Origin: Bacteroidota bacterium
GTDB taxonomy: Bacteria > Bacteroidota > Bacteroidia > JABDFU01
Direction of reading: 5' to 3'
Assembly (NCBI GenBank): GCA_013286655.1
Contig: JABDFG010000003.1
Location: 8,906-72,905 of the forward strand
DNA length: 64,000 bases
The notes beneath the pieces are model-generated. The model saw only the letters and a list, made by a program, of their open reading frames with translations. It searched no databases and had not been told where the DNA came from. Below are positions 13,688-42,616 of the stretch, piece after piece. The number at the start of each line of letters is the position of its first letter. The first letter of the stretch is position 1. The position numbers and the translations under genes are program-made.

Positions 13688-16600
13688 TTATAGTTCAATA
13701 CCCACCACCATCACATCATCAACCTGTTCATTGGTGCCCATCCATTCAGTCAATGTAGCCTGCAGTTTTTCTTTTTGCTCGTCTATAGGATTAGACTCAA
13801 TCTGCTGAAGTAGGTTTTTAAATCGTGATTTCATAAACTTCTTATCATTAGCTCCTCCGAACTGAGAATAATAACCATCCGAGCTTAGGTAAATATGTTG
13901 TCCGGGGATAATGGGAAATCGTTTAGTTTCAAATTTTCTTTCAACCGCTTCTATCACCCCGCCAATTGAAAAACGCTCGGAAGGTAACTCTTTAATTTTT
14001 CCATCTCCATCCGAAAGGAACAGGGGGCGGTAAGCTCCTGCGAAATACACTTCATTAAAATAAGTGTCCACCACACATAAGGCTATATCCATTCCATCTT
14101 TAACTTCCTGGACGTCTCCCCTAACTGCTTCTGAAAGCCTGCTATCTAATAATTCTAAAATTTCTGATGGATTTTCTATATGTTCATCTATAACGATATG
14201 GTTAAGCAAGTTATTCCCGATAATTGACATCAATGCCGCAGGTACTCCATGTCCAGTGCAATCTGCTACTACAATGAATTTTTTACTGCGTCTTTGAAAG
14301 CACCAGAAGAAATCGCCACTAACAATATCCCGTGGAAGAAAGAGTATAAATGATTTAGAAAATATTTCTGCCAATTGTCTGGAATTGGACATGAGTCCAA
14401 CCTGAATCCGCTTGGCATAATTAATGCTATCCGTAATACTTCTGTTTTTATCAACAAGTTCTTTGGTTCGTGAATCGACCCTATGTTCAAGTTCAGTCAA
14501 GGTATTGTCTCTCTCCTGCTGGACTCTTTTTAGTTCTGTTATGTCTTCGTGAGCCACAACAACCATTGGCAAATCACTTTCAAATTTCATCACTCTTAAG
14601 ACAAACCATCTTTGCTCATTGGGAGAATGACAAGGATATTCAAGATAAAATATGCTCTTTCTTTGATCCATTACTTCCTTTATTCCCTGTAATGCTTTCG
14701 CGGCAATTCCATCACCCTCTCCGGCTGATTTAATGCATACGTCAAAATAATTACTTCCCTCTCCTGTGCGCTGTAAAGCCGTTTCTCCATTTTGTAATGC
14801 AAATTGATTCCATGCCTCGTTCACCGCCACAATAGTTCCGGCTGCATTTATCACAGCGATATGAGAACTCAAGGAATGCAGAACCCCTCGGTTAAATTCC
14901 TCACTTTTTCGGAGCAACTGTTCCGTCCTTTTTCTTTCAGTTATGTCTCTGGAATGACATGCAGCTCCAACAACACCTTTATCCTCTTTGATAGGAGAAT
15001 ACGAAATCTCTGTCCACAGTTCAACTGGCGAGTCGAAGTGCTCAATTTCTGTAAAAACTTCCCCCACAAATGCCCTCCCATATAATTGCTTAAAGTGATT
15101 AAGCATTTCTATAGTGTAAGATGATGAAAGAACATTGCTTCCTTTTGAGATTGTTTTGCCAAAAGAAAGCTCGCCCATTATGTCAAATGGCTTATTTGAT
15201 GTAATTAAATTAAAATTTTTATCTACGCTCCACATTAAATCCTTTGTGTTATTGATCAAAGCATTCAAATTGTTTTCATCAAATTTTCGCTGGGTTTCCA
15301 TTTTTTTTATTTCGGAAATATCACTGAAATTTGATACCAAAGCATGTATTCCGGGTTCACGAAGCATATTGGTAATATTACCTTCGCACATAATCCAGTT
15401 GCCATTTTTATGCAAAAACCTTAGCTGAGCATAGAATGATTGACCTGGATTGAGCAGAATTTTATTCCTTTTCTCTAAATATCCTTCCATGTCCTCCGGA
15501 TGAATAATTTTGAATAGTGGAATACTTAGAAACTCCGCCGAAACATATCCGAGTATTTTTGTAATAGAAGGGCTTACATAAATTATTTTCCCTTCTTCAT
15601 TAGAAAGTATTTTTATGTCGCTGCTTTTTTCGATCAGGGAACGAAACAGCTTTTCATTTTGAGCTACCAGCTTTTCTGTTTCCTTTTGTATTTTCGCATT
15701 TGCAAACGTGTCAATGGTCAAAGAAATGTCCTCCGACATTTCTACAAGCAATTCAATTTCTTCTTTGGTGGCAAAATCGAGTTCGGCAGCATACAGGTTA
15801 AAGGTGCCAATAATAATTCCTGATTTTCTAATTGGTAATACCATGCAGGATCGGATACCATACTTTGAGGCAAATAACTTCCAGTTTTCCAATTGGGGGT
15901 CATTTTCTATATCATTGCAGATATAGTGCATACCCGTTTCTAAAACATGGCTTTGCGGACCTTTATTTTGAAGGGAAACTCTGGTAAATAATTTGATTTC
16001 TTCATCTGGTACACCACATTGATTAATAAGAATTATTTTTTTCTGCTCATTGTAAAACAGCCCTATCCACGCCATCTTTAATCTGCCGAACTCAATCGCT
16101 ATTGCGCATGAATTACCGAAAAGTTCTTTTTCACTTTTTATATGAACAATATTCTGATTGATCTGGTTAATAAAAGCGTACAGACGATTAGCTTTACTTA
16201 TTTTCTCCTCTGTTTCCCTGCGTTCCGTAATATCCTGTATAGTTCCATATAAACGAACGGGCTTCCTTCTTTTGTTGTACTCAAATTTCCATTCGGCATA
16301 ACCGTGTCTAATAATACCATCCGTGCGAATGAACCTGAAATTAAAGCCGGAATCAGTTAATGTATCAAAAGCTTCTTTTGTTTTCCTTTGTGAGGAAACT
16401 GCATCATCGGGATGAATAAATGATAACAAGGTTTCGATGGATTGCCGGTTTTGACCTAGGGGGATGCCATATATTCTGCACGCTTCATCAGACAATAGAA
16501 GAACTTTGGAGGAGAATACTAATTCCCAGCTTCCAAAATGAGCCACCTGTTGTGCCTTTGCAAGCTGTTTTTCACTTTGTGCAAGATCAAAAGCTGTTTT

Positions 16601-17008
16601 CTTCTTTTGTTTATTTTCTTTTGAATCCTTTAATGCTCGTAGTACTTTGGTGTTCAAAGTGAACAATCTGTCTTTTAATACATAATCAGTCAAACCATTC
16701 TTAATCAGCTCAATGGATTTTTCCTCCCCAATTGTTCCTGATACAAAAATAAATGGAGTATCGGGAGCTGTCTGTTCGCGTATTTTAAGGGCGGTAAGTC
16801 CGTCAAAGGATGGAAGAGAGTAGTCAGACAATATAACATCTGGTTCAAAATCTTTAAGAGCAATGCCGTAATCCCTCTCATTTTTAACAATTTCTGATGT
16901 AAAATTGATTCCTCCCATTTTTAATTCGTATTGCAGAAGCTCAATATCATTTGCGTCATGCTCTACAATTAAAATTTTGGTTTTGGTATTCAATGGGTTG
17001 TTTGTCAA
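13688..17008 (-). CDS. response-regulator receiver / PAS / GAF / PAS / SpoIIE-PP2C phosphatase multidomain protein
   Basis: N-terminal REC ([14 protein letters not shown]...[13 protein letters not shown]). Several PAS-like blocks and a GAF-like block. C-terminal PP2C/SpoIIE region ([11 protein letters not shown]...[20 protein letters not shown]...LSSDGY...[10 protein letters not shown]). Confidence 0.85.
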
Positions 17009-17439
17009 GGTGTTTGGTTAACGATCATCCAGAAAAGACCCAACTCGGTAATAACCGTCTGAAATTCAATAAAGTCGACTGGCTTTACAACGTAACTGTT
17101 TACACCAAGTTCATAACATTTTTTTATATCGGGGTCTTCCTTTGAAGAAGTGAGTACGACAACCGGGATTCCTTTGGTTCTTTCATCTGATTTTATTCTC
17201 TGAAGGACCTCAATGCCATTTATCTTGGGCATTTTTAGATCAAGAAGAATCAGCTTGGGCTTATTCTCTATTTGTCTTTCTGACCATTTTCCTTCGGCGA
17301 AAATGAAATCCAATGCCGCTGCACCATCTTTTATATGCAGAAGTTTGTCAGCTAAATTGTTCTTCTGTAACGCAGTGATAGTCATTTCAGCGTCGCTGGC
17401 GTTGTCTTCAACCAATAAAATTTGCACTTCTCTGTTCAT
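17005..17439 (-). CDS. stand-alone response-regulator receiver (CheY-like)
   Basis: [14 protein letters not shown]...[17 protein letters not shown]...PVVVLTSS...NSYVVKP. 4-nt ATGA overlap with the downstream PP2C gene. Confidence 0.9.
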
Positions 17440-17443
17440 GAAT

Positions 17444-18844
17444 TTAAGACTTAATCAATGTGAAATAAAATACTGCTCCTTCGTTTACTTTTCCTTCCGC
17501 CCATACTCTTCCGCCATGTTTGGTAATAATCCTTTGAACAATGGCCAACCCTACCCCGGTTCCCTCAAATTCATCTTCAGAATGAAGGCGCTGAAATACT
17601 CCAAAAAGTTTGTTTATATACCGCATGTCGAAACCGGCACCGTTATCCTTTATATAATAAATTATTTCATCGCCTTTTATTTCAGAGCCAATTTCAATAA
17701 TTGGTTTTTCTTTAAATCCGGAGTATTTAATAGCATTTGAAATAAGGTTTACCCAAACTTGTTTTATTGCAACGCTGTCTGCCTGAGCAGGGATTAGGGG
17801 TTGAATACGGAATTCAATTTTAGTGTGACCTTCTCCATTTCGAAATTCGTGACAGATATTCTCCACCATTTCATTCATCAGAATTTTGATCTTAACCAAT
17901 TCTTTGCGTCCAAGGCGCGAAAAGGTGAGAAGGTCATCAATTAGCTGCCCCATTTTTTTTGCATTGCCAATGATATTACCCATCAACCGCTTTGCTTCAG
18001 TATCCAGTAGGCTTTCATATTTATCTTTATGCATCTGCGCATATCCAAGTATTGCGCGGAGTGGAGCCCGTAAATCATGAGATACGGAATAGGAGAATGA
18101 TTCCAACTCTTTATTAACGGCTTCCAGTTGGGCCGTTCGGTCTATTTTCTCCTCGTTTTGAAAGGCCAATTCGTTATTTGCAATTATCAACTCCGCCGCT
18201 CTCTTTTCCTTCTCTTCGTTTTGAAAAGCAAGTTCTATGTTGGCAATGCCTAATTCTCCGGCCCTTCTTTCCTTTTCCTTATTTTGAAAGGCAAGTTCTT
18301 TATTTGCAATTTTTAATTCGGCAGCGCGTTTTTCTTTCTCAATATTCTGAAAAGCCAGTTCTTTATTAGCAATTATTAGTTCCGCCGCCCGTTTGCCTTT
18401 CTCTTCGTTTTGAAAGACCAATTCTATATTCGCCAGACCCAATTCAGCAGCTCGTTTTTCTTTCTCCTTATTTTGAAAACTAAGTTCTGTATTGGCAATG
18501 CTCAGCTCTGCAGCTCGTTTTTCCTTCCTTTGGTTTTCAATGGCTAGTTCTTTGTTGGCAATAATTAACTCAGCAGCACGTTCTTCTTTTTCTTCGTTTT
18601 GAAAGGCAAGTTCATGATTTGCAATGACTAACTCTGCAGCGCGTTTTTCTTTTTCCTTATTTTGAAACGCCAATTCTTTATTAGCTATGCTTAACTCGTT
18701 AGCACGTTTTTCTTTCTCCTCATTTTGAAACGCGAGTTCTTTATTGGCTATACTTAATTCTGCGGCTCGTTTCTCCTTCTCCTCATTCTGAAAAGCAAGC
18801 TCCTTATTGGCAAAAATTAATTCATCTGATTTCTTTTTGTCCAA
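17444..18844 (-). CDS. soluble histidine kinase whose entire N-terminal region is 11 tandem 21-aa coiled-coil repeats
   Basis: Residues 8-238 are 11 x EL(I/S)[18 protein letters not shown]. They run straight into HisKA ([19 protein letters not shown]) and HATPase_c (DNGAGFD...GTGVGLAIV). No TM, PAS, GAF or other sensor domain. TTG start. Confidence 0.85.
18131..18823 (-). repeat. 63-bp tandem repeat array, 11 units, in frame
   Basis: Repeated ttgaaa(a/g)gc(a/c)a(g/a)ttc...gc(a/c)at..ttaa(c/t)tc.gc.gc.cg.tt.tc words across lines 18121-18840. Units are diverged at the DNA level. Confidence 0.9.
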
Positions 18845-18993: not shown

Positions 18994-21900
18994 TCACAAT
19001 GAAGCGGGAATGTAAATATCAATCCGAGTGCCCTTATTTAATTTACCTGTTGCGGTAATAACGCCTTTGTGGTTTTCAACAATTCGTTTACAAATAGCAA
19101 GTCCAATACCTGTACCTTTATATTTATCAAACTCGTGAAGGCGTTGGAATACTTCAAAAATCCGATCCTTATACTGTGGGTCGAAACCGATACCGTTGTC
19201 GCTAACAGTTAAGTGACAATAGTTGACTTCAGGTAAGAGATCTTTTATATTTAATATGCTTCCTGATTTAATTTCGCACTTTATCGTTATACGTGGAAAT
19301 CGTTTAGGATATGAAAACTTTAGAGAGTTGCTGATAAGATTTTGTATGATCTGACGGAACTGGAAGCGAATAATGTTTGCATTGCAAAGTCCATCGACTT
19401 TGATAGTTGCTTTTTTTTCTATCAAAGTTTCCTTAAAATCCGCTATAACTTCTTTAACAATTTCAGTGAGAGTTGTGTTTTCGAAATTATGTGCTCCATT
19501 CTTTACACGTGAATAAGCAAGTAAATCTTCAATGAGCATCTGCATTCTTTTAACCGTGTCCATCATTCTATTCAAATAATCCTTCCCTTTTTCTGATAAA
19601 TTTTCCTTTTCATCCCGGATTATAGAATCTGAAAAGTTTTTTATTTTACGTAAAGGTTCCTGCAAATCGTGGCTCGAAATAAAAGTGAATGTTTCCAATT
19701 CCTTATTCATTTTTTCCAGAAAAGTATTCTTTTCTTCAAGAGTTTTATAACTTTCATCCAATTCAGATGTTCGTTCATTGATAATATTTTCCAATCCCTT
19801 TTTTTCTGCTTTCCGTTTGCGTGTACTCTCTGTTATATCGGTAAAAGCAAGCAAAATCAATTGCTCGTTTTGAGATTTCTGTACAATTCGTTTTGCATTG
19901 AGCAACATTGTTTTCTTACCTATTCCGGGAAAAAAATGGGTAATTTCATAATCGTTGAAGTAATTATCTTTTTGAATAATACTTTCCAAAAGTTCGCGCA
20001 GACGTGGAATATCCCATTGGTGATTACCTAATTCATACAACAGATTTCCCTCCGTGTCTTTTTGGAGAACCATGAATTTTTTATAGAACGCTTTATTGGC
20101 TGATTTTATCCGAAGGTCTTTTCCAAGGATGAGAAAGGGCTCATGCATTGTCGCTGCAATGGCAATGGCAAAGTTATAAGTTTCCGTAAGTTGCTCGTTC
20201 CGTGTTTGTAATTCTTCATTTGTAGAAGTAAGCTCTTCATTAGTTGCTTCAATTTCTTCCTTGGAGGTTTCAAGTTCTTCATTCAGGCTCTGAAACTCTT
20301 CATTGGTTGAAACAATTTCTTCATTAGCAGCCTGCAATTCTTCGTAAGCTGTTTCCCTTGCTTCTATAATAGAATGCATTTCGGCATGCGCGCTATTCAA
20401 TTCTTCTGCCAGTTTTTTTATTTTCCGGTTTTTTTCTGTTGAATTATTATTTGAGTCTTTACCATTATGACTATAATCATCCGCAGGCTCCTGTATCGTA
20501 AAAACAATGAGGAGAATCGGCTCCTCCCATTCAATATCAAGAGGATGTACCTGTAAAGTTATTGTCCTCAATGTGGAATCAAAATTCATTTCAATATCCG
20601 ATTTCCTGACAGGCTTCTTTGTTTTAATAGCTTTGTGAATCACGGAACGCAATTCAAAAGCAAATTCAGGGCGTACCATTTTTAAAATATTCAAACTGGC
20701 ATTACCTGAAGAATGCCTTAGAAACAAAGATGTGGAGCCTCTGAATTTAAGAATTTCCATATCCTTATTAATTATGGCACAAGCCGGCACATAATTGGAG
20801 AGAAGAGTGGAATCGATAACATTATCGAGTTCTGTTGAATTAAAGTGTGTGTTTTTCGATGCAACCTTGATATTTTTTGGAGTAATAGCCGTCCGTGGAA
20901 AATGAGGCAGCAGTTCTGGCACCTTACGTAAACCTGCATTTTTTTTCTTGGAGAAAATTGCGAATCTATTATCTACACGTGAAAAAAGCTGAGAAGATGT
21001 TCCGACAGTTTCTGATTGCCCCATCATTAAATATTTCCCCTCATTCAAGGCAAAATAAAAAAGCGCCAGTGCTTTTTTCTGGGCAACCGGGTCAAAATAA
21101 ATAAGAAGATTTCGGCAACTGATTAAATCCAACCGTAAAAAAGGCGGATCACGCAGAACATTGTGCGGAGCAAACACACACATTTCCCTGATCTCTTTAA
21201 CTATTTTGTAGTGATTATTGGTCTTCACAAAAAAGCGCTTAAGACGTTCTTTGCTGACGGGCTTTACATCACTTTGCGAATATTCACCGATTCGGGCATC
21301 ATGTATAGCCTGGTCACTGAGATCAGTGGCGAAAATCTGTATGGGATTTTTTTTGCTTTTATTATCCTGCAATTCAATTATCAGCATAGCAATTGTATAG
21401 ACTTCCTCTCCTGTCGAACAAGCAGGTACCCATATTCGTATTGTTTCTTCGGCTGTTTTGCTTTTAAGAATTCTAGGAAGTATTGTTGTTCTTAAATACG
21501 GGAAAATTTCTTTATCCCTGAAAAATCTGGTTACATTAATAAGTAAGTCCTTGTAAAGTATATCGACCTCCTGACTCTTTTTTAATAACAACCTGGCATA
21601 TCCCTTTAATGTCTTTTCTCCGCATTGAAGCATCCTGTTTTGAATCCTTCTTTTAATGGTAGCTATTTTATACCTTCCGAAATCAACATTTATTTTTTTG
21701 TGCAAGATGTCCAGAACGGTCTTCAAAGCCGGATCACTATCTTCAATGGTCATGTCTTCCACCTCGTTTTTAATCTCTCGCCTCAAAAATCCACTTTTGC
21801 TAAAGCGTATAAATTCACGTGCAATTTCCTGTGGTGATAAAACAAAATCAACCACTCCCGATGCAATAGCAGATTGAGGCATGCTGTGTGCCTGCGCTGA

Positions 21901-22410
21901 ACCATCCTGAGCAAAAGTCATGCCTCCGGCGTCTTTAATTGCCTTTAACCCAATGGTGCCATCATGCAGATTACCTGATAGAATCACACCAATGACATTT
22001 TCTTTATGAGTTAGTGCCAACGAGGAAAAAAGGATATCAATGGAAATGGCATTTCCGTCTTTCGACCGAGGAATCAATTTTATATGACCGTCCATTACCG
22101 TAATTCCTTTATTATAAGGAATTACGTAAACATTATTTGGCTTAATAAGTTCCATATCATCTATCTCCTGAACGTCCATTTTGGTTATTTTCGATAAAAT
22201 GGAAGTGAGATAACTTTTATGATCCTTATTGAGGTGCTGTACAATAATATATGCCATTCCGGTATCATCCGACAAATTTTTCAATAAAGCTGAAACGGCT
22301 TCCAGCCCCCCAGTGGAGGCGCCAATGGCAACCACCGGAAAAGATTTTTTTTGGACCTTATAGGGCGCGTCAGATTGTTTTTTTTGAACAGATGATTTTT
22401 TTCTTGCCAC
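18994..22410 (-). CDS. CheB methylesterase - CheR methyltransferase - PAS - heptad coil - PAS - HisKA/HATPase fusion kinase
   Basis: CheB: FPVVAIGASTGGLEAVSALL. CheR: VTRFFRDKEIFPYL...IWVPACSTGEEVYTIAM...ISCRNLLIYF. Coil: ELQAANEEIVSTNEEFQSLNEELETSKEEIEATNEELTSTNEELQTRNEQL. HisKA: FTFISSHDLQEPLRKIKNF. HATPase: DNGIGFD...GTGIGLAICK. GTG start. Confidence 0.85.
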   Translation of the reverse strand: MARKKSSVQKKQSDAPYKVQKKSFPVVAIGASTGGLEAVSALLKNLSDDTGMAYIIVQHLNKDHKSYLTSILSKITKMDVQEIDDMELIKPNNVYVIPYNKGITVMDGHIKLIPRSKDGNAISIDILFSSLALTHKENVIGVILSGNLHDGTIGLKAIKDAGGMTFAQDGSAQAHSMPQSAIASGVVDFVLSPQEIAREFIRFSKSGFLRREIKNEVEDMTIEDSDPALKTVLDILHKKINVDFGRYKIATIKRRIQNRMLQCGEKTLKGYARLLLKKSQEVDILYKDLLINVTRFFRDKEIFPYLRTTILPRILKSKTAEETIRIWVPACSTGEEVYTIAMLIIELQDNKSKKNPIQIFATDLSDQAIHDARIGEYSQSDVKPVSKERLKRFFVKTNNHYKIVKEIREMCVFAPHNVLRDPPFLRLDLISCRNLLIYFDPVAQKKALALFYFALNEGKYLMMGQSETVGTSSQLFSRVDNRFAIFSKKKNAGLRKVPELLPHFPRTAITPKNIKVASKNTHFNSTELDNVIDSTLLSNYVPACAIINKDMEILKFRGSTSLFLRHSSGNASLNILKMVRPEFAFELRSVIHKAIKTKKPVRKSDIEMNFDSTLRTITLQVHPLDIEWEEPILLIVFTIQEPADDYSHNGKDSNNNSTEKNRKIKKLAEELNSAHAEMHSIIEARETAYEELQAANEEIVSTNEEFQSLNEELETSKEEIEATNEELTSTNEELQTRNEQLTETYNFAIAIAATMHEPFLILGKDLRIKSANKAFYKKFMVLQKDTEGNLLYELGNHQWDIPRLRELLESIIQKDNYFNDYEITHFFPGIGKKTMLLNAKRIVQKSQNEQLILLAFTDITESTRKRKAEKKGLENIINERTSELDESYKTLEEKNTFLEKMNKELETFTFISSHDLQEPLRKIKNFSDSIIRDEKENLSEKGKDYLNRMMDTVKRMQMLIEDLLAYSRVKNGAHNFENTTLTEIVKEVIADFKETLIEKKATIKVDGLCNANIIRFQFRQIIQNLISNSLKFSYPKRFPRITIKCEIKSGSILNIKDLLPEVNYCHLTVSDNGIGFDPQYKDRIFEVFQRLHEFDKYKGTGIGLAICKRIVENHKGVITATGKLNKGTRIDIYIPASL

Positions 22411-22442: not shown

Positions 22443-22907
22443 TTATACCTCTTGCAAACTGAGAATAAATTTATCTCGTGAAGGCTGTTCAAATTTTTTC
22501 CCCACAATCTTAGTAAGAATATAATTGAGCGTTTTTCTAAGTTCTGTCAAATCTGTCTTTCGAATGTAATAGTATGCTCCGATTTTGTAGAGAATGTCGG
22601 CAATCTGGTCGTCAAGAGAAGTGGAATATATTACTACCGGAAGTTTTTGAAGTTTTTTATTGCTTTTAATTTCTATAAGACATTCATGACCGTTTTTTCG
22701 GGGCATGTTGAGGTCGAGAAAAAGAACATCCGGAAGTTGTTCTGAATTTGCAGAAAGATAATTTATCAGTCGTTCACCATCATTAACAGATTTAAAATGA
22801 GTAGCGATTGGTAATTCCTCTAACGCTTCCTTAAAGAAAAAGCGATCATCTTTGTCATCATCTGCAAGAAGTATATTAAGAATTATATGCTTTTCTTTAG
22901 GTTTCAT
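22443..22907 (-). CDS. stand-alone response-regulator receiver (paralog of 41154 and 42086)
   Basis: ILLADDDKDDRFFFKEAL...VLFLDLNMPRKNGHECLIEIKSNKKLQKLPVVIYSTS, plus the C-terminal motif QPSRDKFILSLQ. Confidence 0.9.
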   Translation of the reverse strand: MKPKEKHIILNILLADDDKDDRFFFKEALEELPIATHFKSVNDGERLINYLSANSEQLPDVLFLDLNMPRKNGHECLIEIKSNKKLQKLPVVIYSTSLDDQIADILYKIGAYYYIRKTDLTELRKTLNYILTKIVGKKFEQPSRDKFILSLQEV

Positions 22908-37076: not shown

Positions 37077-38216
37077 TTAACAGGGCAATGCAAAACAAAA
37101 TGTAGCACCTTTACCTACTTCCGCTTCTGCATATATCCTTCCTCCATGTTTGTTTATGATACGTTGCGCAATCGCCAAACCTACTCCTGTTCCTTCAAAT
37201 TCTTCATCTGTATGTAAACGCTGAAAAACACCAAATAATTTGTCCGCATACTTCATGTCAAATCCTTCGCCGTTATCTTTTATCATATAGGTGACTTGAT
37301 GATTTTTCCTTTCGGATGTTATTTCAATCAGGGAATTCTTCTTTTTGGAAGAATATTTTATACCATTTGAAATCAGATTGATTGCGACTTGCTTGATCAG
37401 AGCGTAATCCCCTTTGACCGGATCTAATGTATTTACTTTTATTTCTGCCTTATGATTCGTTGTGTTTTTTAAATCTGTTAGTATTTCCTCAATTAGGAGA
37501 TTCATGTCAATGTCTGTTTCCTGAATAGGTTTTTTTCCCAGTCTTGCAAAAGTTAACAAGTCATCAATCAGGTTGTTCATCTTTATGGCATTATCCTGAA
37601 CGGCTGATAATACTCTTTTCCCTTCCTTATCAAAAAGCGGGCTAAAATCCTCTTCCAGTATCCTTGTATATCCATCTATGGCGCGTAAGGGAGCCCTCAG
37701 ATCATGTGATACAGAATAAGAAAAGGCTTCCAGCTCCTTATTTACTGCTTCCAACTGTTGCGTACGTTGCTCAATAACAGCCTGTTGTTCCATGATCTTT
37801 GTGATATTAATGAAAAAAGATATCAGGTAATTCTCTCCGTTCATTTCCATCAGCTCAATGGATGATACGGTATGAACTGTTGTCCCGTCTTTTGCGATGC
37901 ATCTAACATAATCATTTTGTAGCCTGCCTTTTTCTTGTATGATGTAGCCCACTCTGACGGATTCTTCCCTATCAAGGATTCCTATTTCTACAGATGTCCG
38001 GCCGATGATATCCGATTCAGCATAGCCGAAAGTTTCTAAAAATTTCTTATTGACTCTTACATAGGTTCTTTTTCCCGGAGCGGTAGTTGTCATGCTCATG
38101 CAAACGGGACTGTTGTTGAATAAGGTTAAAAGTCCCGCTCTGCTTTCCTTGAAAAGCTTCCTGGCCGTATCCAGGTTTTCAACAGTAATCGTATCAGAAA
38201 ATAAGTCCATCGGCAA
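37077..38216 (-). CDS. PAS-domain sensor histidine kinase
   Basis: PAS block, then [28 protein letters not shown] (HisKA) and DNGEGFD...[10 protein letters not shown] (HATPase_c). The kinase core is paralogous to 17444..18844. Confidence 0.85.
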   Translation of the reverse strand: MPMDLFSDTITVENLDTARKLFKESRAGLLTLFNNSPVCMSMTTTAPGKRTYVRVNKKFLETFGYAESDIIGRTSVEIGILDREESVRVGYIIQEKGRLQNDYVRCIAKDGTTVHTVSSIELMEMNGENYLISFFINITKIMEQQAVIEQRTQQLEAVNKELEAFSYSVSHDLRAPLRAIDGYTRILEEDFSPLFDKEGKRVLSAVQDNAIKMNNLIDDLLTFARLGKKPIQETDIDMNLLIEEILTDLKNTTNHKAEIKVNTLDPVKGDYALIKQVAINLISNGIKYSSKKKNSLIEITSERKNHQVTYMIKDNGEGFDMKYADKLFGVFQRLHTDEEFEGTGVGLAIAQRIINKHGGRIYAEAEVGKGATFCFALPC

Positions 38217-39999: not shown

Positions 40000-41136
40000 C
40001 TAATTTGCCGGGATATAAATATCAAAGGTTGCTCCTTTTTTTAGTTCGCTCGTAGCGATGATGATGCCGTTGTGATTTTCTACTATTTTCTTAACGATGG
40101 CTAGCCCGATTCCTGTACCTGCATATACGTCTTTGTTGTGAAGTTTTTGGAATACTTCAAAAATTCGCTCGCTGAAATGAGGTTCAAATCCGATGCCGTT
40201 GTCCTGAACAGTGATGTGACAATAATTTTTTTCCGGTGAAAATTTTTTATTATTTAATTTACTTCCTTTTACAATTCTGCTTTTTATTATTATGTGTGAT
40301 GGCACATCAGGTTGTGAAAATTTGAGCGCGTTGCTTATCAAATTGTACATGAGCTGGCGAAATTGAAAAACAATAATGTTGGCAGAGCAGAGCTGATCGG
40401 CTTCGATGCTTGCGTGTTTTTCAAAAATGGTATCTTTTAATTCGGCTGTGACCTCTTCAATAATTATTTTCAGTTCGGTTTTTTCAAATTTGAGTTCGGT
40501 AGTATTGATACGGGAGAATGCAAGTAAGTCGTCGATGAGTTGTTGCATTCTGCCGGCCGCTAATTGCATCCGTTGAAAATTGTATTTGCCATTGTCAGAT
40601 AGATTCTTATTCTCATTTTCGAGTATTATCGTGACAAAGGTTTGTATTTTACGAAGAGGTTCCTGCAAATCGTGGCTTGATACGTACGTAAATGCTAATA
40701 GCTCTTTGTTGGCAATAATTAACTCTGCCGCTCGTTTTTCTTTCTCTTCATTTTGAAAGGCGAGTTCTTTGTTGGCAATGATTAACTCTGCCGCTCGTTT
40801 TTCTTTCTCTTCATTTTGGAAGGCGAGTTCTTTGTTAGCGACAATTAATTCGGCTGCCCGTTTTTCTTTCTCTTCATTTTGAAAGGCTAGTTCTTTGTTG
40901 GCAATGATAAGTTCTGCCGCCCGTTCTTCTTTCTCTGTTACCTGTTTCTCCAGTTCTGTGTTGGCAATAATGAATTCGGCTGCCCGTTTTTCTTTCTCGT
41001 GGTTTTGGAAAACGAGTTCTTTATTGGCAATGACTAATTCTGCTATTAGTTTCCCCTTCTCTTCTTTTTCAACAGCAAGTTCCCTGCGAACAGTGCTTAG
41101 CTCGTGTCTGTCCAATTTAGTTGTATCCGTCATCAT
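40000..41136 (-). CDS. soluble histidine kinase with an N-terminal array of 21-aa coiled-coil repeats (second copy of this architecture)
   Basis: Five clean repeats plus two degenerate ones of EL(I/V)(I/V)[17 protein letters not shown]. They run directly into HisKA (FTYVSSHDLQEPLRKIQTF) and HATPase_c (DNGIGFE...GTGIGLAIVK). No sensor domain. The kinase core is paralogous to the CheB/CheR kinase. Confidence 0.85.
   Translation of the reverse strand: MMTDTTKLDRHELSTVRRELAVEKEEKGKLIAELVIANKELVFQNHEKEKRAAEFIIANTELEKQVTEKEERAAELIIANKELAFQNEEKEKRAAELIVANKELAFQNEEKEKRAAELIIANKELAFQNEEKEKRAAELIIANKELLAFTYVSSHDLQEPLRKIQTFVTIILENENKNLSDNGKYNFQRMQLAAGRMQQLIDDLLAFSRINTTELKFEKTELKIIIEEVTAELKDTIFEKHASIEADQLCSANIIVFQFRQLMYNLISNALKFSQPDVPSHIIIKSRIVKGSKLNNKKFSPEKNYCHITVQDNGIGFEPHFSERIFEVFQKLHNKDVYAGTGIGLAIVKKIVENHNGIIIATSELKKGATFDIYIPAN
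40726..41103 (-). repeat. 63-bp tandem repeat array, about 6 units, with two adjacent units differing at 2 of 63 nt
   Basis: The units starting at ~40704 and ~40767 (ctttgttggcaat(a/g)attaactctgccgctcgtttttctttctcttcattttg(a/g)aaggcgagtt) are almost identical. Confidence 0.9.
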
Positions 41137-41153: not shown

Positions 41154-41618
41154 TCAACTGTGCAAATTACTTTGCACAGTGAGTACAAAATTATCTCTGG
41201 TGGGTAATGTTCTTTTTTCCTGGGCTATATGTATGAGCGTTTGATAAACGATCGCTTTAAATTGTGAAAAGATGGATGGTTTTCGAATGAAATAATGTGC
41301 CCCATTTTTGTAAAGCAGATTCACAACTTCTTGTTCAAAGGAGGTGGAAAAAATAATGACAGGAAGGTGTTTCAATTTTTCACTTGACTTTATTTCTGAT
41401 AAACATTCAAAACCGTTTTTTCGTGGCATATTCAGATCAAGGAAAAGAACATGTGGGAGGTTATTCGCTTCGGTTGCGAGATAGTCCATGAGTTGTTCTC
41501 CGTTATGCATGGTTGCGAGGGTTGTGGGGATTGCTAAATCCTTTAACGCATCTTTAAAAAAGATGCAGTCATCCGTATCGTCATCTGCAAGCAGGATATT
41601 CAATTGGGTCAAACTCAT
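41154..41618 (-). CDS. stand-alone response-regulator receiver
   Basis: ILLADDDTDDCIFFKDAL...VLFLDLNMPRKNGFECLSEIKSSEKLKHLPVIIFSTS, plus the C-terminal motif LPTRDNFVLTVQ. Confidence 0.9.
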   Translation of the reverse strand: MSLTQLNILLADDDTDDCIFFKDALKDLAIPTTLATMHNGEQLMDYLATEANNLPHVLFLDLNMPRKNGFECLSEIKSSEKLKHLPVIIFSTSFEQEVVNLLYKNGAHYFIRKPSIFSQFKAIVYQTLIHIAQEKRTLPTRDNFVLTVQSNLHS

Positions 41619-41621
41619 TGG

Positions 41622-42080
41622 CTAAGGATGTATATTAATTAAGCGAATTTTTTCTACAACCTTTGTAAGGGCCTGACCGATGGCCTGTTGGAGTTGTGCC
41701 AAATCACTGGACTTGTGGATGTAATCGTTCGCTCCGATCTTGAAAAGATTGGCTATCATTTCCCGTTCATAATTCTTGTCCTGTGGAAATGATGTTGAAA
41801 ACATGATCACATAGAGGTTCTTGAGCTTTTCATTTTCTTTTATCTCGGACAGGCATTCAAAACCATTTTTTCGAGGCATATTCAGGTCAAGAAAAAGAAC
41901 ATCGGGAAGGTGTTCCGAATGTTCGGAAAGGTATTTCATCAGCTCCTCTCCATCATTAACGATTGTAAGGGTGCGGGATATTGTTAGTTTCTCCAATGCC
42001 TTATCAAAAAACTGACGATCGTCAGAGTCATCATCTGCAAGCAGAATGCTAATAGGAGCTTTTTGTTGTAGTACGTTCAT
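41622..42080 (-). CDS. stand-alone response-regulator receiver
   Basis: ILLADDDSDDRQFFDKAL...VLFLDLNMPRKNGFECLSEIKENEKLKNLYVIMFSTS. Lacks the C-terminal motif of its paralogs. Confidence 0.9.
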   Translation of the reverse strand: MNVLQQKAPISILLADDDSDDRQFFDKALEKLTISRTLTIVNDGEELMKYLSEHSEHLPDVLFLDLNMPRKNGFECLSEIKENEKLKNLYVIMFSTSFPQDKNYEREMIANLFKIGANDYIHKSSDLAQLQQAIGQALTKVVEKIRLINIHP

Positions 42081-42085
42081 CAGAT

Positions 42086-42616
42086 TTAATTAAATTTAGG
42101 GGCCATGGGAAGTGCGAAGAAATTATTGAACCAAAACAGAGGCTTGGAATTTTTCCGTTCCACTGTAAGCAAAAAATATTCTTTTTTTGGTTGTAAAATG
42201 TTTCCTTCAGCTATAAGCATAAGTGTTTGTTGAACTGCTTGTTTGAGATGTAAAATCTCAGTTGGTTTACTTATATAGTAATTTGCTCCGTTCTCATAAA
42301 GAATGTCCGCAATCTTCTTATGGAATGTCGTGGAATAAATAATTATCGGAAGCATTTTCAATTTTTCGTTTGACTTTATTTCTGATAAACATTCAAATCC
42401 GTTTTTCCGGGGCATGTTCAGATCGAGGAAAAGAGCGTGAGGAAGCTGATTGGTTTCACTTGTGAGGTGGTTCATTAGCTGTTCTCCATCGGCTACTGTT
42501 GTCAGCGTAATCGATAGTGAAAATTCTTTGAGCGCTTCCTTAAAAAAAGTGTGATCATCTGCGTCATCATCTGCCAGCAGGATGTTAAGAGAGGTTTTGT
42601 TTTGTTTCGGTTCCAT
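42086..42616 (-). CDS. stand-alone response-regulator receiver with an extended C-terminus
   Basis: ILLADDDADDHTFFKEAL...ALFLDLNMPRKNGFECLSEIKSNEKLKMLPIIIYSTT, then QPKKEYFLLTVE and a 20-aa hydrophobic tail. Confidence 0.9.
   Translation of the reverse strand: MEPKQNKTSLNILLADDDADDHTFFKEALKEFSLSITLTTVADGEQLMNHLTSETNQLPHALFLDLNMPRKNGFECLSEIKSNEKLKMLPIIIYSTTFHKKIADILYENGANYYISKPTEILHLKQAVQQTLMLIAEGNILQPKKEYFLLTVERKNSKPLFWFNNFFALPMAPKFN

What the first reader, a model, noticed from the sequence alone, without database searches (positions are those of the whole stretch)
18131..18823. Histidine kinase whose only input region is 11 tandem 21-residue repeats (63-bp DNA period)
Residues 8-238 of the 466-aa kinase are 11 consecutive copies of EL(I/S)[19 protein letters not shown] 12th degenerate copy ([20 protein letters not shown]) merges into the HisKA phospho-acceptor helix. 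There is no TM segment, PAS, GAF or any other sensor domain, and the protein begins only 7 residues before the first repeat. The unit length of 21 residues equals three heptads. The array would therefore form one uninterrupted coiled coil in register with the dimeric HisKA helix. I estimate about 230 residues and roughly 30+ nm if fully helical. A kinase regulated purely through a long modular charged coil is not a described input logic. Possible roles are a ruler, thermosensor, scaffold, or substrate for the neighbouring CheB/CheR enzyme. I recall seeing the [19 protein letters not shown] word in other Bacteroidota kinases, but I know of no functional study.
Basis: partly seen in the sequence, partly recalled or inferred. 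Interest (0 to 1): 0.7.

Follow-up and report, generated by a model that had tools for sequence, protein, structure and literature searches.

The report
Histidine kinase with tandem signalling-helix stalk
A soluble bacterial sensor kinase has no sensor domain, only a roughly 34-nm rod made of eleven copies of a 21-residue helical unit; the same undescribed rod module recurs in at least about 1,500 signalling-protein clusters, mostly from Bacteroidota.

Summary
Gene 17444..18844 (minus strand, 466 aa) encodes 7 residues, then 11 gap-free 21-aa units, then a 12th degenerate unit holding the phospho-acceptor His256, then HisKA and HATPase_c. No TM, PAS or GAF is present, and an in-frame stop lies 3 codons upstream.

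The array is old and under selection. Each unit matches the same-numbered unit of an independent 89%-identical orthologue (87% versus 72% DNA identity).

The unit is almost invariant at heptad positions a, d, e and g. It copies the "EL..ANKEL" and Arg-containing signalling-helix stretch that normally precedes this type of H-box.

Spacing to the His, and to upstream PAS "DIT" motifs, is heptad-phased. AlphaFold gives a helix continuous with the DHp. I read it as a tandemly iterated S-helix: a polar-core, probably parallel coiled-coil stalk.

The module is widespread (≥1,565 clusters at 50% identity). It links PAS, CHASE3 or REC to HK, GGDEF or HD-GYP domains. About half of sampled members are repeat-only kinases with 5–26 units.

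The conserved partner is an adjacent phytochrome-type single-domain receiver. CheB/CheR is nearby in only ~14% of loci, and the unit lacks the methylation motif.

I found no Pfam, NCBIfam, PDB or literature entry. What the coil senses remains inference.

The parts
17444..18844 (-). Repeat-only histidine kinase gene (466 aa, TTG start)
   Evidence: ORF list. In-frame TGA three codons upstream. Pfam finds HisKA and HATPase_c only. The orthologue P0007 in L001 has the same TTG start and the same length.
18131..18823 (-). Array of 11 x 21-aa units (residues 8-238). Consensus [21 protein letters not shown], three heptads per unit. Assigned core positions: a = L2, L9, K16; d = A5, Q12, R19.
   Evidence: Unit-by-unit orthology with L001 and a third-codon-position excess of differences.
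18068..18130 (-). 12th, degenerate unit (residues 239-259, [21 protein letters not shown]). It is the start of DHp helix 1. His256 codon at 18077-18079.
   Evidence: His falls at unit position 18. AlphaFold helix 139-279 runs through it.
17909..18103 (-). HisKA (DHp) domain, residues 248-312
   Evidence: Pfam PF00512, E = 8e-16. Best solved relatives are 8f71, bacteriophytochrome kinases and HK853.
17456..17779 (-). HATPase_c catalytic domain, residues 356-463
   Evidence: Pfam PF02518, E = 7e-22.
17005..17439 (-). Stand-alone receiver protein (144 aa), 5 bp downstream. Probable cognate phospho-acceptor.
   Evidence: Pfam Response_reg. Best PDB relatives are phytochrome response regulators: 5ic5 (9e-44), 5brj, RcpA/B and Rcp1. 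A stand-alone REC is directly adjacent in 75 of 87 repeat-only kinase loci that have both flanks.
13688..17008 (-). REC-PAS-GAF-PAS-PAS-SpoIIE (PP2C phosphatase), 1106 aa. Third gene of the cassette.
   Evidence: Pfam. In other loci the equivalent position holds a REC/PAS/GAF-HK gene.
18994..22410 (-). CheB-CheR-heptad coil-PAS-HisKA-HATPase fusion, 150 bp upstream. A neighbour in a minority of loci.
   Evidence: Pfam. Conserved next to the orthologue in L001. CheB/CheR present in only 7 of 50 repeat-only loci with at least 4 kb on both flanks.
22443..22907 (-). Stand-alone receiver of the second ('LLADDD') type, upstream of the CheB-CheR kinase
   Evidence: Pfam. It is 52-56% identical to the three REC genes at 41154-42616 and 28% identical to the REC at 17005.
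40000..41136 (-). Second repeat-only kinase in the window (378 aa). It has 7 units in register (residues 12-158, window 40663-41103). The last unit runs directly into the H-box ([25 protein letters not shown]). Its kinase core belongs to a different lineage.
   Evidence: Its core is 58% identical to the CheB-CheR kinase and 36% identical to the first repeat kinase. AlphaFold gives a single helix 11-156.
41154..42616 (-). Three tandem stand-alone receiver genes directly upstream of the second repeat kinase
   Evidence: ORFs. Pairwise identities 51-58%. Upstream REC genes recur in this kinase subclass.
37077..38216 (-). PAS-HK paralogue with a single canonical signalling helix ([30 protein letters not shown]). 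Serves as the comparison for the unit's origin.
   Evidence: Its core is 58% identical to the repeat kinase.

Best explanation
Structure (shown or strongly inferred). The 11 units are a tandemly iterated signalling helix (S-helix). Each 21-residue unit is three heptads. It reproduces the stretch '(E/K)R(T/A)AEL..ANKEL.F' that ordinarily lies just N-terminal to the H-box of this HisKA subfamily. The array is one continuous alpha-helix that runs without a phase break into DHp helix 1. In the kinase dimer it most probably forms a parallel, in-register two-stranded coiled coil about 34 nm long. Its core is unusually polar and marginally stable: Leu, Ala, Leu, Gln, Lys, Arg at successive a and d positions. 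Because indels come in whole units of 3 x 7 residues, copy number can change without changing the angular register at the His.

Function (inferred). In the family at large the array is a long-range connector that carries conformational signals between input domains and the DHp. In repeat-only kinases such as this one, nothing sits at the far end, yet all 11 units are held under strong purifying selection. I therefore take the coil itself to be the regulatory element. Its zipped or rigid state versus its dynamic state would set the rate of autophosphorylation at His256. That state could be set by physical conditions (temperature, ionic strength, pH) or by a protein that binds the coil. This follows what is described for the marginally stable coil of BvgS. 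The phosphoryl group then goes to the adjacent phytochrome-type single-domain receiver. From there, or in parallel, it reaches the REC-gated multi-PAS/GAF PP2C phosphatase, where chemical signals are integrated.

My sub-probabilities:
- continuous helix in register with the DHp: 0.85
- parallel dimeric coil: 0.7
- the coil is the regulatory input rather than a passive dimeriser: 0.45
- the cue is physical rather than a binding partner: 0.25
For: Anatomy. Eleven gap-free units are followed by a 12th that contains His256.

Conservation. In 1,650 distinct units, positions 1, 2, 5, 6, 8, 9, 12, 15, 16, 19, 20 and 21 are at least 92% conserved. These cover every a, d and g position and two of the three e positions (N13, the third e, is 80%); the f position 21 is also 93%, while the b positions and the other two f positions are variable. 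This is the pattern reported for the S-helix.

Origin of the unit. R19 aligns with the Arg of the S-helix 'ERT' signature, and the last unit reads DRTAQL. Non-repeat kinases with the same H-box show E-L-x-x-[S/A]-N-K-[E/D]-L at His-17 to His-9, which equals unit positions 1-9.

Phase. The distance from the start of the last unit to the His, taken mod 7, is 3, 0 or 6 in 255 of 268 proteins. The offset from the PAS 'D[IV][TS]' motif to the first unit is 3+7n (most often 10, then 17, 24, 31) in 63 of 105 junctions. Heptad-dependent linker behaviour is established for YF1 (PMC6798134).

Structure prediction. AlphaFold gives helix 139-279 through His256. It gives a single helix 11-156 for the second kinase. 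There is no Pro. Gly occurs almost only at outward b and f positions and is not centred in the array. 39 of 163 arrays have no Gly or Pro at all.

Orientation. All g positions are Glu and the e positions are Asn, Asn and Ala. That would give Glu:Glu g-g' clashes in an antiparallel pairing but not in a parallel one. This is my inference from the logo.

Selection. Orthologous units share 87% DNA identity against 72% for paralogous units. Differences fall 51% at third codon positions against 13-20% at the first two. The same 11 units are kept in order in P0007 and in P0042, whose core is 71% identical.

Module use. The array is linked to PAS, REC, CHASE3, GAF, GGDEF, HD-GYP and SpoIIE domains.

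Partner. A stand-alone REC is adjacent in 75 of 87 loci. It is of the phytochrome-RR type.

Precedent. Coil-stability gating is described for BvgS (PMC4810494).
Against: - No dimer model could be computed. The monomer model of the 11-unit protein folds back at residues 129-138, although with pLDDT 40-49.
- Only 3 of 6 core positions per unit are apolar. Conserved Ile4 and Phe11 sit at the outward 'c' position, which a simple two-stranded coil does not explain. A higher-order bundle or a bound partner is therefore possible.
- The 'EEKEKRAA' heptad resembles ER/K single alpha-helices, so parts of the array may not pair at all.
- Copy number ranges from 5 to 26 among repeat-only kinases. This argues against a precisely tuned length.
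- Nothing computed here shows that the coil responds to any cue. A constitutively active kinase would fit the same data.
- The unit logo is drawn from units detected with an HMM built on this protein, which inflates the apparent conservation.
Confidence: 0.5

Rival explanations
1. Default-on kinase. The array is only a very stable dimerisation and solubility stalk, left over after loss of an N-terminal PAS domain. The kinase is constitutively active. Regulation happens downstream, through phosphate-sink receivers and the REC-gated multi-sensor PP2C or HK, or at the level of transcription.
For: The closest kinase cores (72-77% identity) carry a PAS domain before the array, so PAS loss is plausible. 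The H-boxes read SHDLRAPL and SHDLQEPL. They lack the Thr/Asn of the HisKA E/DxxT/N phosphatase motif. From my knowledge of HisKA kinases, not tested here, this suggests kinase-biased enzymes. Sensor-rich REC-PAS/GAF proteins follow in the cassette.
Against: A vestigial cable should decay or shrink. Instead all 11 units are kept in order with strong purifying selection down to 71% core identity. Repeat-only kinases make up about half of the sampled family across many orders. Simple dimerisation does not need 231 residues or near-invariant Lys and Arg in the core.
Confidence: 0.22
2. Docking or co-assembly platform. Interface residues are nearly identical in all paralogues of a genome. The array may therefore zip sensor-less kinases to PAS-bearing paralogues, to receivers, or into higher-order bundles. 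Input would then be borrowed in trans.
For: Outward-facing Ile4 and Phe11 ('c' positions) are 89-94% conserved, which suggests a second interface. Several genomes and loci carry two or more array proteins: two in this window, and L004, L033 and L036. The array sits on two different kinase lineages in this window. In B. cereus RsbK the receiver domain interacts with the S-helix and HK region (PMC4574943).
Against: No co-variation or interaction data exist. DHp domains normally enforce homodimer specificity, which is general knowledge and was not tested here. No array-only or sensor-plus-array proteins without an output were clearly seen; the short hits are probably gene fragments.
Confidence: 0.15
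3. Methyl-accepting coil. The neighbouring CheB-CheR enzyme methylates or demethylates (or deamidates) Glu and Gln residues of the array. This would adapt kinase output, as CheR-like RsbM does on the S-helix of RsbK upstream of the REC-PP2C RsbY in Bacillus cereus.
For: This window holds the full gene set in one strand-run: a CheB-CheR fusion, the S-helix-array kinase, and a REC-PP2C. The same order is kept in the orthologous locus L001. CheB/CheR recurs near array kinases in diverse lineages, in 7 of 50 loci. RsbK provides the precedent (PMC4574943). Each unit offers Glu14-Glu15 and Gln12.
Against: 86% of well-flanked repeat-only loci have no CheB/CheR within at least 4 kb. The unit has no Glu-Glu-X-X-(Ala/Ser)-(Ser/Thr) motif. 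Every CheB-CheR fusion seen carries its own 5-7 heptads of (S/T)(S/T)NEEL(Q/E), which do fit that motif and are the more obvious substrate.
Confidence: 0.08
4. Antiparallel hairpin stalk. The array folds back on itself and forms a chemoreceptor-like four-helix bundle in the dimer. This would bring the N-terminus, or a PAS domain where present, back next to the kinase.
For: The AlphaFold monomer model of the 11-unit protein breaks at residues 129-138, near the middle, at the Gly-containing unit 7. That unit is conserved in the orthologue.
Against: The break has pLDDT 40-49, and monomer models often fold long dimer helices back on themselves. There is no conserved turn. Gly and Pro are not centred in 163 arrays, and 39 arrays have none. 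The 7-unit kinase is modelled as one straight helix. Odd and even copy numbers are equally common. Having all g positions as Glu would clash in an antiparallel pairing.
Confidence: 0.05

Closest known systems
Signalling helix (S-helix) of Anantharaman, Balaji and Aravind 2006 (PMC1592074)
   Same: A heptad helix placed between input and output modules and directly before the DHp. Conservation is concentrated on a, d, e and g positions. A polar Arg sits at a 'd' position, matching the ERT signature (DRT in the last unit here). It is found with HK, GGDEF and other outputs.
   Different: The S-helix is one segment of about 40 residues (5 heptads). Here a 3-heptad unit is repeated 5-26 times. In the units, ERT is replaced by K-R-A. 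The array also occurs at the extreme N-terminus with no input domain.
BvgS PAS-DHp coiled-coil linker (PMC4810494) and YF1/FixL LOV-DHp linker (PMC6798134)
   Same: A two-helix coiled coil with a marginally stable interface, continuous with the DHp. Its dynamics and heptad phase decide between kinase and phosphatase output.
   Different: Those linkers are a few heptads long and are driven by an upstream sensor. This one is 33 heptads long with nothing upstream.
RsbK-RsbM-RsbY module of Bacillus cereus (PMC4574943)
   Same: A kinase with an S-helix, an adjacent CheR-type methyltransferase, and a REC-PP2C phosphatase as the downstream partner. This window has the same gene content.
   Different: RsbK has CHASE3-HAMP-GAF inputs and a single S-helix. 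The methyltransferase association is not conserved for array kinases. No methylation motif is present in the unit.
Cph1-Rcp1 and bacteriophytochrome HK / single-domain RR pairs
   Same: The kinase core and the adjacent 144-aa receiver are most similar to phytochrome-associated kinases and receivers with solved structures. A long helical spine feeds the DHp.
   Different: There is no PAS-GAF-PHY photosensory module. The repeat array takes its place.
Chemoreceptor (MCP) cytoplasmic coiled coil
   Same: A very long heptad-quantised signalling coil. Length classes differ by whole heptads. Genes sometimes neighbour CheB/CheR.
   Different: MCPs are antiparallel hairpins that form four-helix bundles and carry EExxA(S/T) methylation sites. 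The array shows no hairpin signature and no such motif.
TlpA coiled-coil thermosensor, EnvZ cytoplasmic osmosensing, and ER/K single alpha-helices (recalled from my own knowledge, not tested here)
   Same: Long, highly charged helices whose folding or pairing responds to temperature or solute conditions, or which act as stiff spacers.
   Different: There is no sequence relationship, and none of them is built from a 21-residue S-helix unit fused to a DHp.

Membership tests
HisKA-type sensor histidine kinase | HisKA (DHp) domain with a phospho-acceptor His in an H-box | tested here: met
   PF00512, E = 8e-16, residues 248-312. H-box [10 protein letters not shown] with His256.
HisKA-type sensor histidine kinase | HATPase_c catalytic domain | tested here: met
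   PF02518, E = 7e-22, residues 356-463. Solved relatives include HK853 and bacteriophytochrome kinases.
HisKA-type sensor histidine kinase | Recognisable input (sensor) domain or TM segments | tested here: not met
   No further Pfam or NCBIfam domain. Maximum hydropathy 0.94. A stop codon lies 3 codons upstream of the start.
HisKA-type sensor histidine kinase | Autophosphorylation and transfer to a cognate receiver | not testable with these tools
   Only gene adjacency to a stand-alone REC is available.
Signalling helix (S-helix) | Heptad-patterned helix located between signalling modules, immediately N-terminal to the DHp or another output | tested here: met
   Heptad phase to the His and to PAS DIT motifs. 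Helix continuous with the DHp in AlphaFold models. Varied input and output partners.
Signalling helix (S-helix) | Conservation concentrated on a, d, e and g positions | tested here: met
   Logo of 1,650 units: all a, d and g positions and two of three e positions are at least 92% conserved (N13 at e is 80%); b positions are variable, as are two of the three f positions (f position 21 is 93% Ala). Compared.
Signalling helix (S-helix) | 'ERT' signature at c-d-e of the central heptad | tested here: inconclusive
   Arg is 98% conserved at the matching 'd' position. The units read K-R-A, however. Only the last unit reads D-R-T.
Signalling helix (S-helix) | Single segment of about 40 residues (5 heptads) | tested here: not met
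   231 residues, 33 heptads, as 11 tandem units. The range is 5-26 units in relatives.
MCP-like methyl-accepting coil (CheR/CheB substrate) | Glu-Glu-X-X-Ala-Ser/Thr methylation motif on the coil | tested here: not met
   The unit has E14-E15-K-E-K-R. The motif is present instead in the CheB-CheR fusion's own coil.
MCP-like methyl-accepting coil (CheR/CheB substrate) | Antiparallel hairpin giving a four-helix bundle | tested here: inconclusive
   No conserved central turn. Straight helix in the 7-unit model. A low-confidence fold-back appears in the 11-unit monomer model. No dimer model was possible.
MCP-like methyl-accepting coil (CheR/CheB substrate) | Consistent genomic association with CheB/CheR | tested here: not met
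   7 of 50 repeat-only loci with at least 4 kb on both flanks.
RsbK/RsbM/RsbY-type stress module | S-helix kinase, adjacent CheR-type methyltransferase and REC-PP2C in one cluster | tested here: met
   Window genes 18994-22410, 17444-18844 and 13688-17008. The same arrangement is found in L001.
RsbK/RsbM/RsbY-type stress module | Methylation of the kinase S-helix by the methyltransferase | not testable with these tools
   Needs biochemistry. The precedent is PMC4574943.
Phytochrome-type HK / single-domain RR pair | Receiver of the Rcp1/RcpA/bacteriophytochrome-RR family next to the kinase | tested here: met
   5ic5 (9e-44), 5brj (2.5e-39), 1k66, 1k68 and 1i3c.
Phytochrome-type HK / single-domain RR pair | PAS-GAF-PHY photosensory core | tested here: not met
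   Absent.
ER/K single alpha-helix | Dense i to i+4 Glu-Lys/Arg pairs and no hydrophobic seam | tested here: inconclusive
   40% of residues are charged, with 2.2 opposite-charge i,i+4 pairs per unit. A conserved Leu/Ala/Leu seam is nevertheless present.

The most novel reading that the evidence does not exclude
The 21-residue array is a self-contained, length-tunable physical sensor or zipper. One possibility is a protein thermometer or ionic-strength gauge, whose cooperative zipping over 5-26 units directly gates the DHp. Another is a common interface through which the many array-bearing sensors of one Bacteroidota cell co-assemble into mixed signalling bundles. In that case sensor-less kinases would read the state of PAS-bearing paralogues, a chemoreceptor-array-like organisation for two-component systems.
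Probability: 0.15. Interest if true: 0.85.

Novelty: new variant of a known kind. Interest (0 to 1): 0.6.

Why it matters
How signals travel along coiled-coil linkers into histidine kinases is still debated. It is mostly studied on linkers a few heptads long. This family offers a natural series of the same near-invariant 3-heptad unit repeated 5 to 26 times. The series is placed before, after or without sensor domains, and it appears on several output types.

If the coil alone can gate a kinase, it would be an input logic with no ligand-binding domain. It would also be a ready-made modular part for synthetic signalling. If it is only a cable, it would show that conformational signals can pass over 30-80 nm of polar-core coiled coil.

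In either case, a module present in at least 1,565 protein clusters and in hundreds of Bacteroidota species has no family model and no literature. Defining it would improve the annotation of thousands of proteins now labelled 'PAS domain S-box protein', 'ATP-binding protein' or similar.

Tried and rejected
- Upstream extension or missed sensor exon: rejected. An in-frame TGA lies 3 codons upstream, the intergenic gap is 149 bp, and the orthologue has the same TTG start.
- Assembly artefact or recent slippage: rejected. Units are 63-83% identical at the DNA level. An independent assembly has the same 11 units in order. There is no sign of recent exchange with the second array gene in the window, where unit identities are 52-84%.
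- Pfam PF24081 (PH_SLA1) hit: rejected as a low-complexity artefact, with no significant stretch.
- Search for a solved structure of the array: only chance hits with E around 0.5.
- NCBIfam: only kinase-core matches below cut-off.
- Literature: exact peptide words, '21-residue repeat', and coiled-coil/Bacteroidetes combinations found nothing on this module. A search for CheB-CheR fusion papers returned only noise.
- Hairpin reading of the AlphaFold break at residues 129-138: judged an artefact.
- CheB/CheR substrate idea: downgraded.
- Copy-number polymorphism among strains: could not be tested. The metagenome scan gave no near-identical relatives except L089, whose gene is cut by a contig end. 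Exact look-up of the query protein found no contig on record.
- Scanning all 146 representative hits against Pfam exceeded the size limit. A subset of 55, enriched for long and short proteins, was used instead. The architecture counts are therefore not a random sample.
- A first comparison with all neighbouring non-repeat kinases was uninformative because H-box subfamilies were mixed. Restricting to the same H-box type gave a clear result, but from only 17 sequences.
Full report
**1. The observation**

The gene is the minus-strand ORF 17444..18844, encoding 466 aa from a TTG start. Reading the minus strand, an in-frame TGA lies three codons upstream of that start. The preceding gene stops at 18994, so only 149 bp of non-coding DNA lie between them. 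An N-terminal sensor domain therefore cannot be supplied by a longer reading frame.

Residues 8-238 (window 18131-18823) are 11 units of exactly 21 residues with no indel. Residues 239-259, [21 protein letters not shown], form a 12th degenerate unit that contains the phospho-acceptor His256. Tandem Repeats Finder reports period 63, 10.8 copies, 73% matches and no indels.

Pfam finds only HisKA (248-312) and HATPase_c (356-463). A PF24081 hit has no significant stretch and is compositional. NCBIfam matches only the kinase core, below every cut-off. There is no hydrophobic segment; the highest 19-residue hydropathy is 0.94. The array is 40% charged, has net charge -8, and would span about 34 nm as a coiled coil.

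**2. Real, old and under selection**

Within the gene, the 63-bp units are only 63-83% identical to each other. A short-read assembler would not collapse or expand them.

An independent metagenome contig (L001, protein P0007, 89% identical) has the same TTG start, the same length and the same 11 units. Each query unit is most similar to the unit with the same number in L001: 87% mean DNA identity on the diagonal against 72% off it. Unit-specific quirks are shared, such as [21 protein letters not shown] in unit 7.

Differences between units fall 51% on third codon positions against 20% and 13% on the first two. Half of all identical-residue pairs use different codons.

P0042, whose core is 71% identical, still keeps all 11 units in order. 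A Flavobacteriales MAG (L005) keeps units 1-10 and has three extra units inserted before the last one. The array therefore predates these lineages. It evolves by rare whole-unit indels and is held by purifying selection on the peptide, not by concerted evolution.

**3. What the unit is**

I collected 1,650 distinct full-length units from 266 proteins and the array-bearing ORFs of the first 83 loci. They give the consensus E1 L2 x I4 A5 N6 x E8 L9 x F11 Q12 N13 x E15 K16 E17 K18 R19 A20 A21. Positions 1, 2, 5, 6, 8, 9, 12, 15, 16, 19, 20 and 21 are at least 92% conserved. This figure is somewhat inflated because detection used an HMM built from this protein.

I set a = L2, L9, K16 and d = A5, Q12, R19. 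The near-invariant positions then cover every a, d and g position and two of the three e positions (N13, the third e, is 80%). Position 21, an f position, is also 93% Ala. The b positions and the other two f positions are variable. Conservation concentrated on a, d, e and g, with a polar Arg at a 'd' position (the ERT signature at c-d-e), is how Anantharaman et al. describe the signalling helix (PMC1592074).

The last unit of this protein reads DRTAQL. Every unit's Arg19 lies 20 + 21k residues before His256.

In 17 non-repeat kinases with the same H-box type, taken from the flanks of the fetched loci, residues His-17 to His-9 read E-L-x-x-[S/A]-N-K-[E/D]-L. That is unit positions 1-9 in the same register. 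The PAS-kinase paralogue in the window (37077-38216) has one such helix, [30 protein letters not shown].

I conclude, by inference, that the unit arose by tandem duplication of the 21 residues of S-helix that abut the H-box. The array is a poly-S-helix.

**4. Register and shape**

Across 268 array proteins I measured the distance from the start of the last detectable unit to the His, taken mod 7. It is 3 in 141 proteins, 0 in 83 and 6 in 31. Only 14 have any other value. Phase 3 means uninterrupted heptads, with His at unit position 18. Phases 0 and 6 differ from it by the 3- or 4-residue steps that keep a hydrophobic seam.

Where a PAS domain precedes the array, the offset from its D[IV][TS] motif to the first unit is 3+7n (most often 10, then 17, 24, 31) in 63 of 105 junctions. 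Many of these sequences are related. Even so, several independent junction classes share the same phases. Heptad-dependent linker behaviour of exactly this kind is documented for the LOV kinase YF1 (PMC6798134).

AlphaFold2 could be run only on the monomer. For this protein (mean pLDDT 71.7) it gives helices 4-128 and 139-279. The second helix runs through His256 into the DHp. The two are separated by a low-confidence break (pLDDT 40-49) at residues 129-138. For the second, 7-unit kinase of the window it gives one helix, 11-156, up to the His.

I read the break as the usual fold-back of a long dimer helix in a monomer model, for three reasons. In 163 repeat-only arrays, Gly and Pro are not centred. 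39 arrays contain none at all. Gly occurs almost only at the outward positions 3, 10, 14, 17 and 21.

All g positions are Glu and the e positions are Asn, Asn and Ala. An antiparallel pairing would put Glu against Glu, while a parallel one would not. This orientation argument is my inference.

Two features do not fit a simple two-stranded coil. Conserved Ile4 and Phe11 sit at outward 'c' positions. The third heptad, EEKEKRAA, is ER/K-like.

**5. The family**

The array alone finds 1,565 clusters at 50% identity with E ≤ 0.001, and 376 with E ≤ 1e-30, among 1.84 billion representatives. The full protein saturates the 8,000-candidate limit of the word-indexed search.

In species genomes, at least 574 stretches match. 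Nearly all are Bacteroidota: Mucilaginibacter, Pedobacter, Flavobacterium, Chitinophagaceae, Cyclobacteriaceae, Chryseolinea and Bacteroidales. There are a few Ignavibacteriota/Kapaibacteria hits and two MAGs labelled Eubacteriales and Soehngenia.

The 21-residue spacing is kept in every one of the 120 best hits. Four architectures appear:
- array then HK
- PAS, array, HK
- array, PAS, HK
- array, PAS, array, HK

Of 55 representatives scanned (not a random sample), 40 have HATPase_c, 34 PAS, 22 REC, 6 CHASE3, 2 GGDEF, 2 HD-GYP and 1 SpoIIE. The array is thus a general connector of signalling modules, as the S-helix is.

Repeat-only kinases make up about half of the sample: 135 of 249, and 128 of 157 in the loci. 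They hold 5-26 units. The kinase cores closest to the query, beyond its direct orthologue, carry a PAS domain before the array. PAS gain or loss is therefore frequent, while the array stays.

No Pfam or NCBIfam model, no solved structure and no paper covers the array.

**6. Context**

In the window, the minus-strand run reads as follows:
- REC, 22443-22907
- CheB-CheR-coil-PAS-HK, 18994-22410
- the repeat kinase, 17444-18844
- REC, 17005-17439
- REC-PAS-GAF-PAS-PAS-SpoIIE (PP2C), 13688-17008

Over 163 loci from genomes and metagenomes, 75 of 87 repeat-only kinases with both flanks present have a stand-alone REC gene directly adjacent. It is directly downstream in 77 of the 111 repeat-only kinases that have at least 600 bp of downstream flank, usually followed by a REC/PAS/GAF kinase.

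The REC here is most similar to phytochrome-associated single-domain regulators: 5ic5 (9e-44), 5brj, RcpA/B and Rcp1. The kinase core is most similar to 8f71, bacteriophytochrome kinases and HK853. The output end is therefore a Cph1/Rcp1-type pair in which the array stands where the photosensory module would be.

CheB/CheR lies within the flanks in only 7 of 50 loci that have at least 4 kb on both sides.

**7. The CheB/CheR idea**

There is a real precedent. In Bacillus cereus the CheR-like RsbM methylates the S-helix of the kinase RsbK, which signals to the REC-PP2C RsbY (PMC4574943). This window has the same three kinds of gene.

Three points count against it. The association is absent from most loci. 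The unit lacks the classical Glu-Glu-X-X-Ala-Ser/Thr motif. Every CheB-CheR fusion seen carries its own 5-7 heptads of (S/T)(S/T)NEEL(Q/E), which do fit that motif. I keep this reading as a low-probability rival.

**8. Mechanism, and how sure I am**

Shown or strongly inferred: the array is a continuous helix of iterated S-helix heptads, in phase with the DHp. It serves as a modular connector and is kept under selection even when nothing sits at its far end.

Inferred: the coil is a parallel dimer whose polar core (Leu, Ala, Leu, Gln, Lys, Arg) makes it marginally stable. In repeat-only kinases its rigid-versus-dynamic state sets autophosphorylation, as shown for the BvgS linker (PMC4810494). 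The cue would be physical or a bound partner. The signal then passes to the adjacent phytochrome-type receiver and the REC-gated multi-sensor phosphatase.

The main rivals are a default-on kinase with a passive stalk, a docking or co-assembly platform, a methyl-accepting coil, and an antiparallel hairpin. None can be excluded without a dimer structure and biochemistry.

**9. Verdict**

The finding is real and the description accurate. The module is widespread but undescribed. It is best filed as a new variant (a tandem array) of a known kind (the signalling-helix coiled-coil linker). It is not a categorically new input logic. What the coil senses, if anything, is open.

Noticed in passing
window 40000-41136 (-), with REC genes at 41154-41618, 41622-42080 and 42086-42616 (-): This is a second repeat-only kinase (378 aa). 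It has 7 units in register, and the last runs straight into the H-box ([25 protein letters not shown]). Three tandem stand-alone receiver genes precede it. Its core is 58% identical to the CheB-CheR kinase but only 36% identical to the first repeat kinase. The array therefore sits on two kinase lineages within 64 kb.
   Followed up: yes
window 20210-20343 (-), inside gene 18994-22410; also CheB-CheR fusions in L001, L029, L032, L033, L046, L047, L080: The CheB-CheR-PAS-HK fusion has its own heptad coil between CheR and PAS: EEIVSTN EEFQSLN EELETSK EEIEATN EELTSTN EELQTRN. The coil is seen in all eight CheB-CheR fusions whose sequence extends past CheR. It fits the classical chemoreceptor methylation motif Glu-Glu-X-X-(Ala/Ser)-(Ser/Thr). 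This suggests that these fusions, found in bacteria without chemoreceptors, methylate themselves.
   Followed up: partly
window 17005-17439, 22443-22907 and 41154-42616 (-): The window holds two distinct kinase/receiver pairings. SHDLRAPL-type kinases have a phytochrome-RR-like receiver downstream. SHDLQEPL-type kinases have one to three 'LLADDD'-type receivers upstream. The latter receivers are 51-58% identical to each other and 28% identical to the former type.
   Followed up: partly
window 13688-17008 (-): A 1106-aa REC-PAS-GAF-PAS-PAS-SpoIIE (PP2C) protein overlaps the stop of the stand-alone REC gene by 4 bp. It is an RsbY/RsbU-like phosphatase, which hints that the cassette feeds a partner-switching (anti-sigma) pathway. 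No anti-sigma or antagonist genes were looked for.
   Followed up: no
window 37077-38216 (-): A PAS-HK paralogue (379 aa) has a kinase core 58% identical to the repeat kinase and a single canonical S-helix ([25 protein letters not shown]). It shows what the junction looks like without the array.
   Followed up: partly
L089 1-982; L006 652-2676: The closest metagenome relative (L089, 90% identical) is cut by a contig end, so its array is incomplete. In L006 an array ORF without a kinase (212 aa) lies directly before an array kinase, which looks like a frameshift or a split gene. Short-read assemblies seem to break or mis-call within these arrays. Copy numbers from MAGs should therefore be treated with care.
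   Followed up: no
L036 5184-10085; L010 1099-3504; L014 1162-3540; L039 1-2298: Some genomes carry arrays of 24-26 units, about 80 nm if fully helical, with no other input domain. L036 has two array kinases in tandem, with 13 and 26 units.
   Followed up: partly
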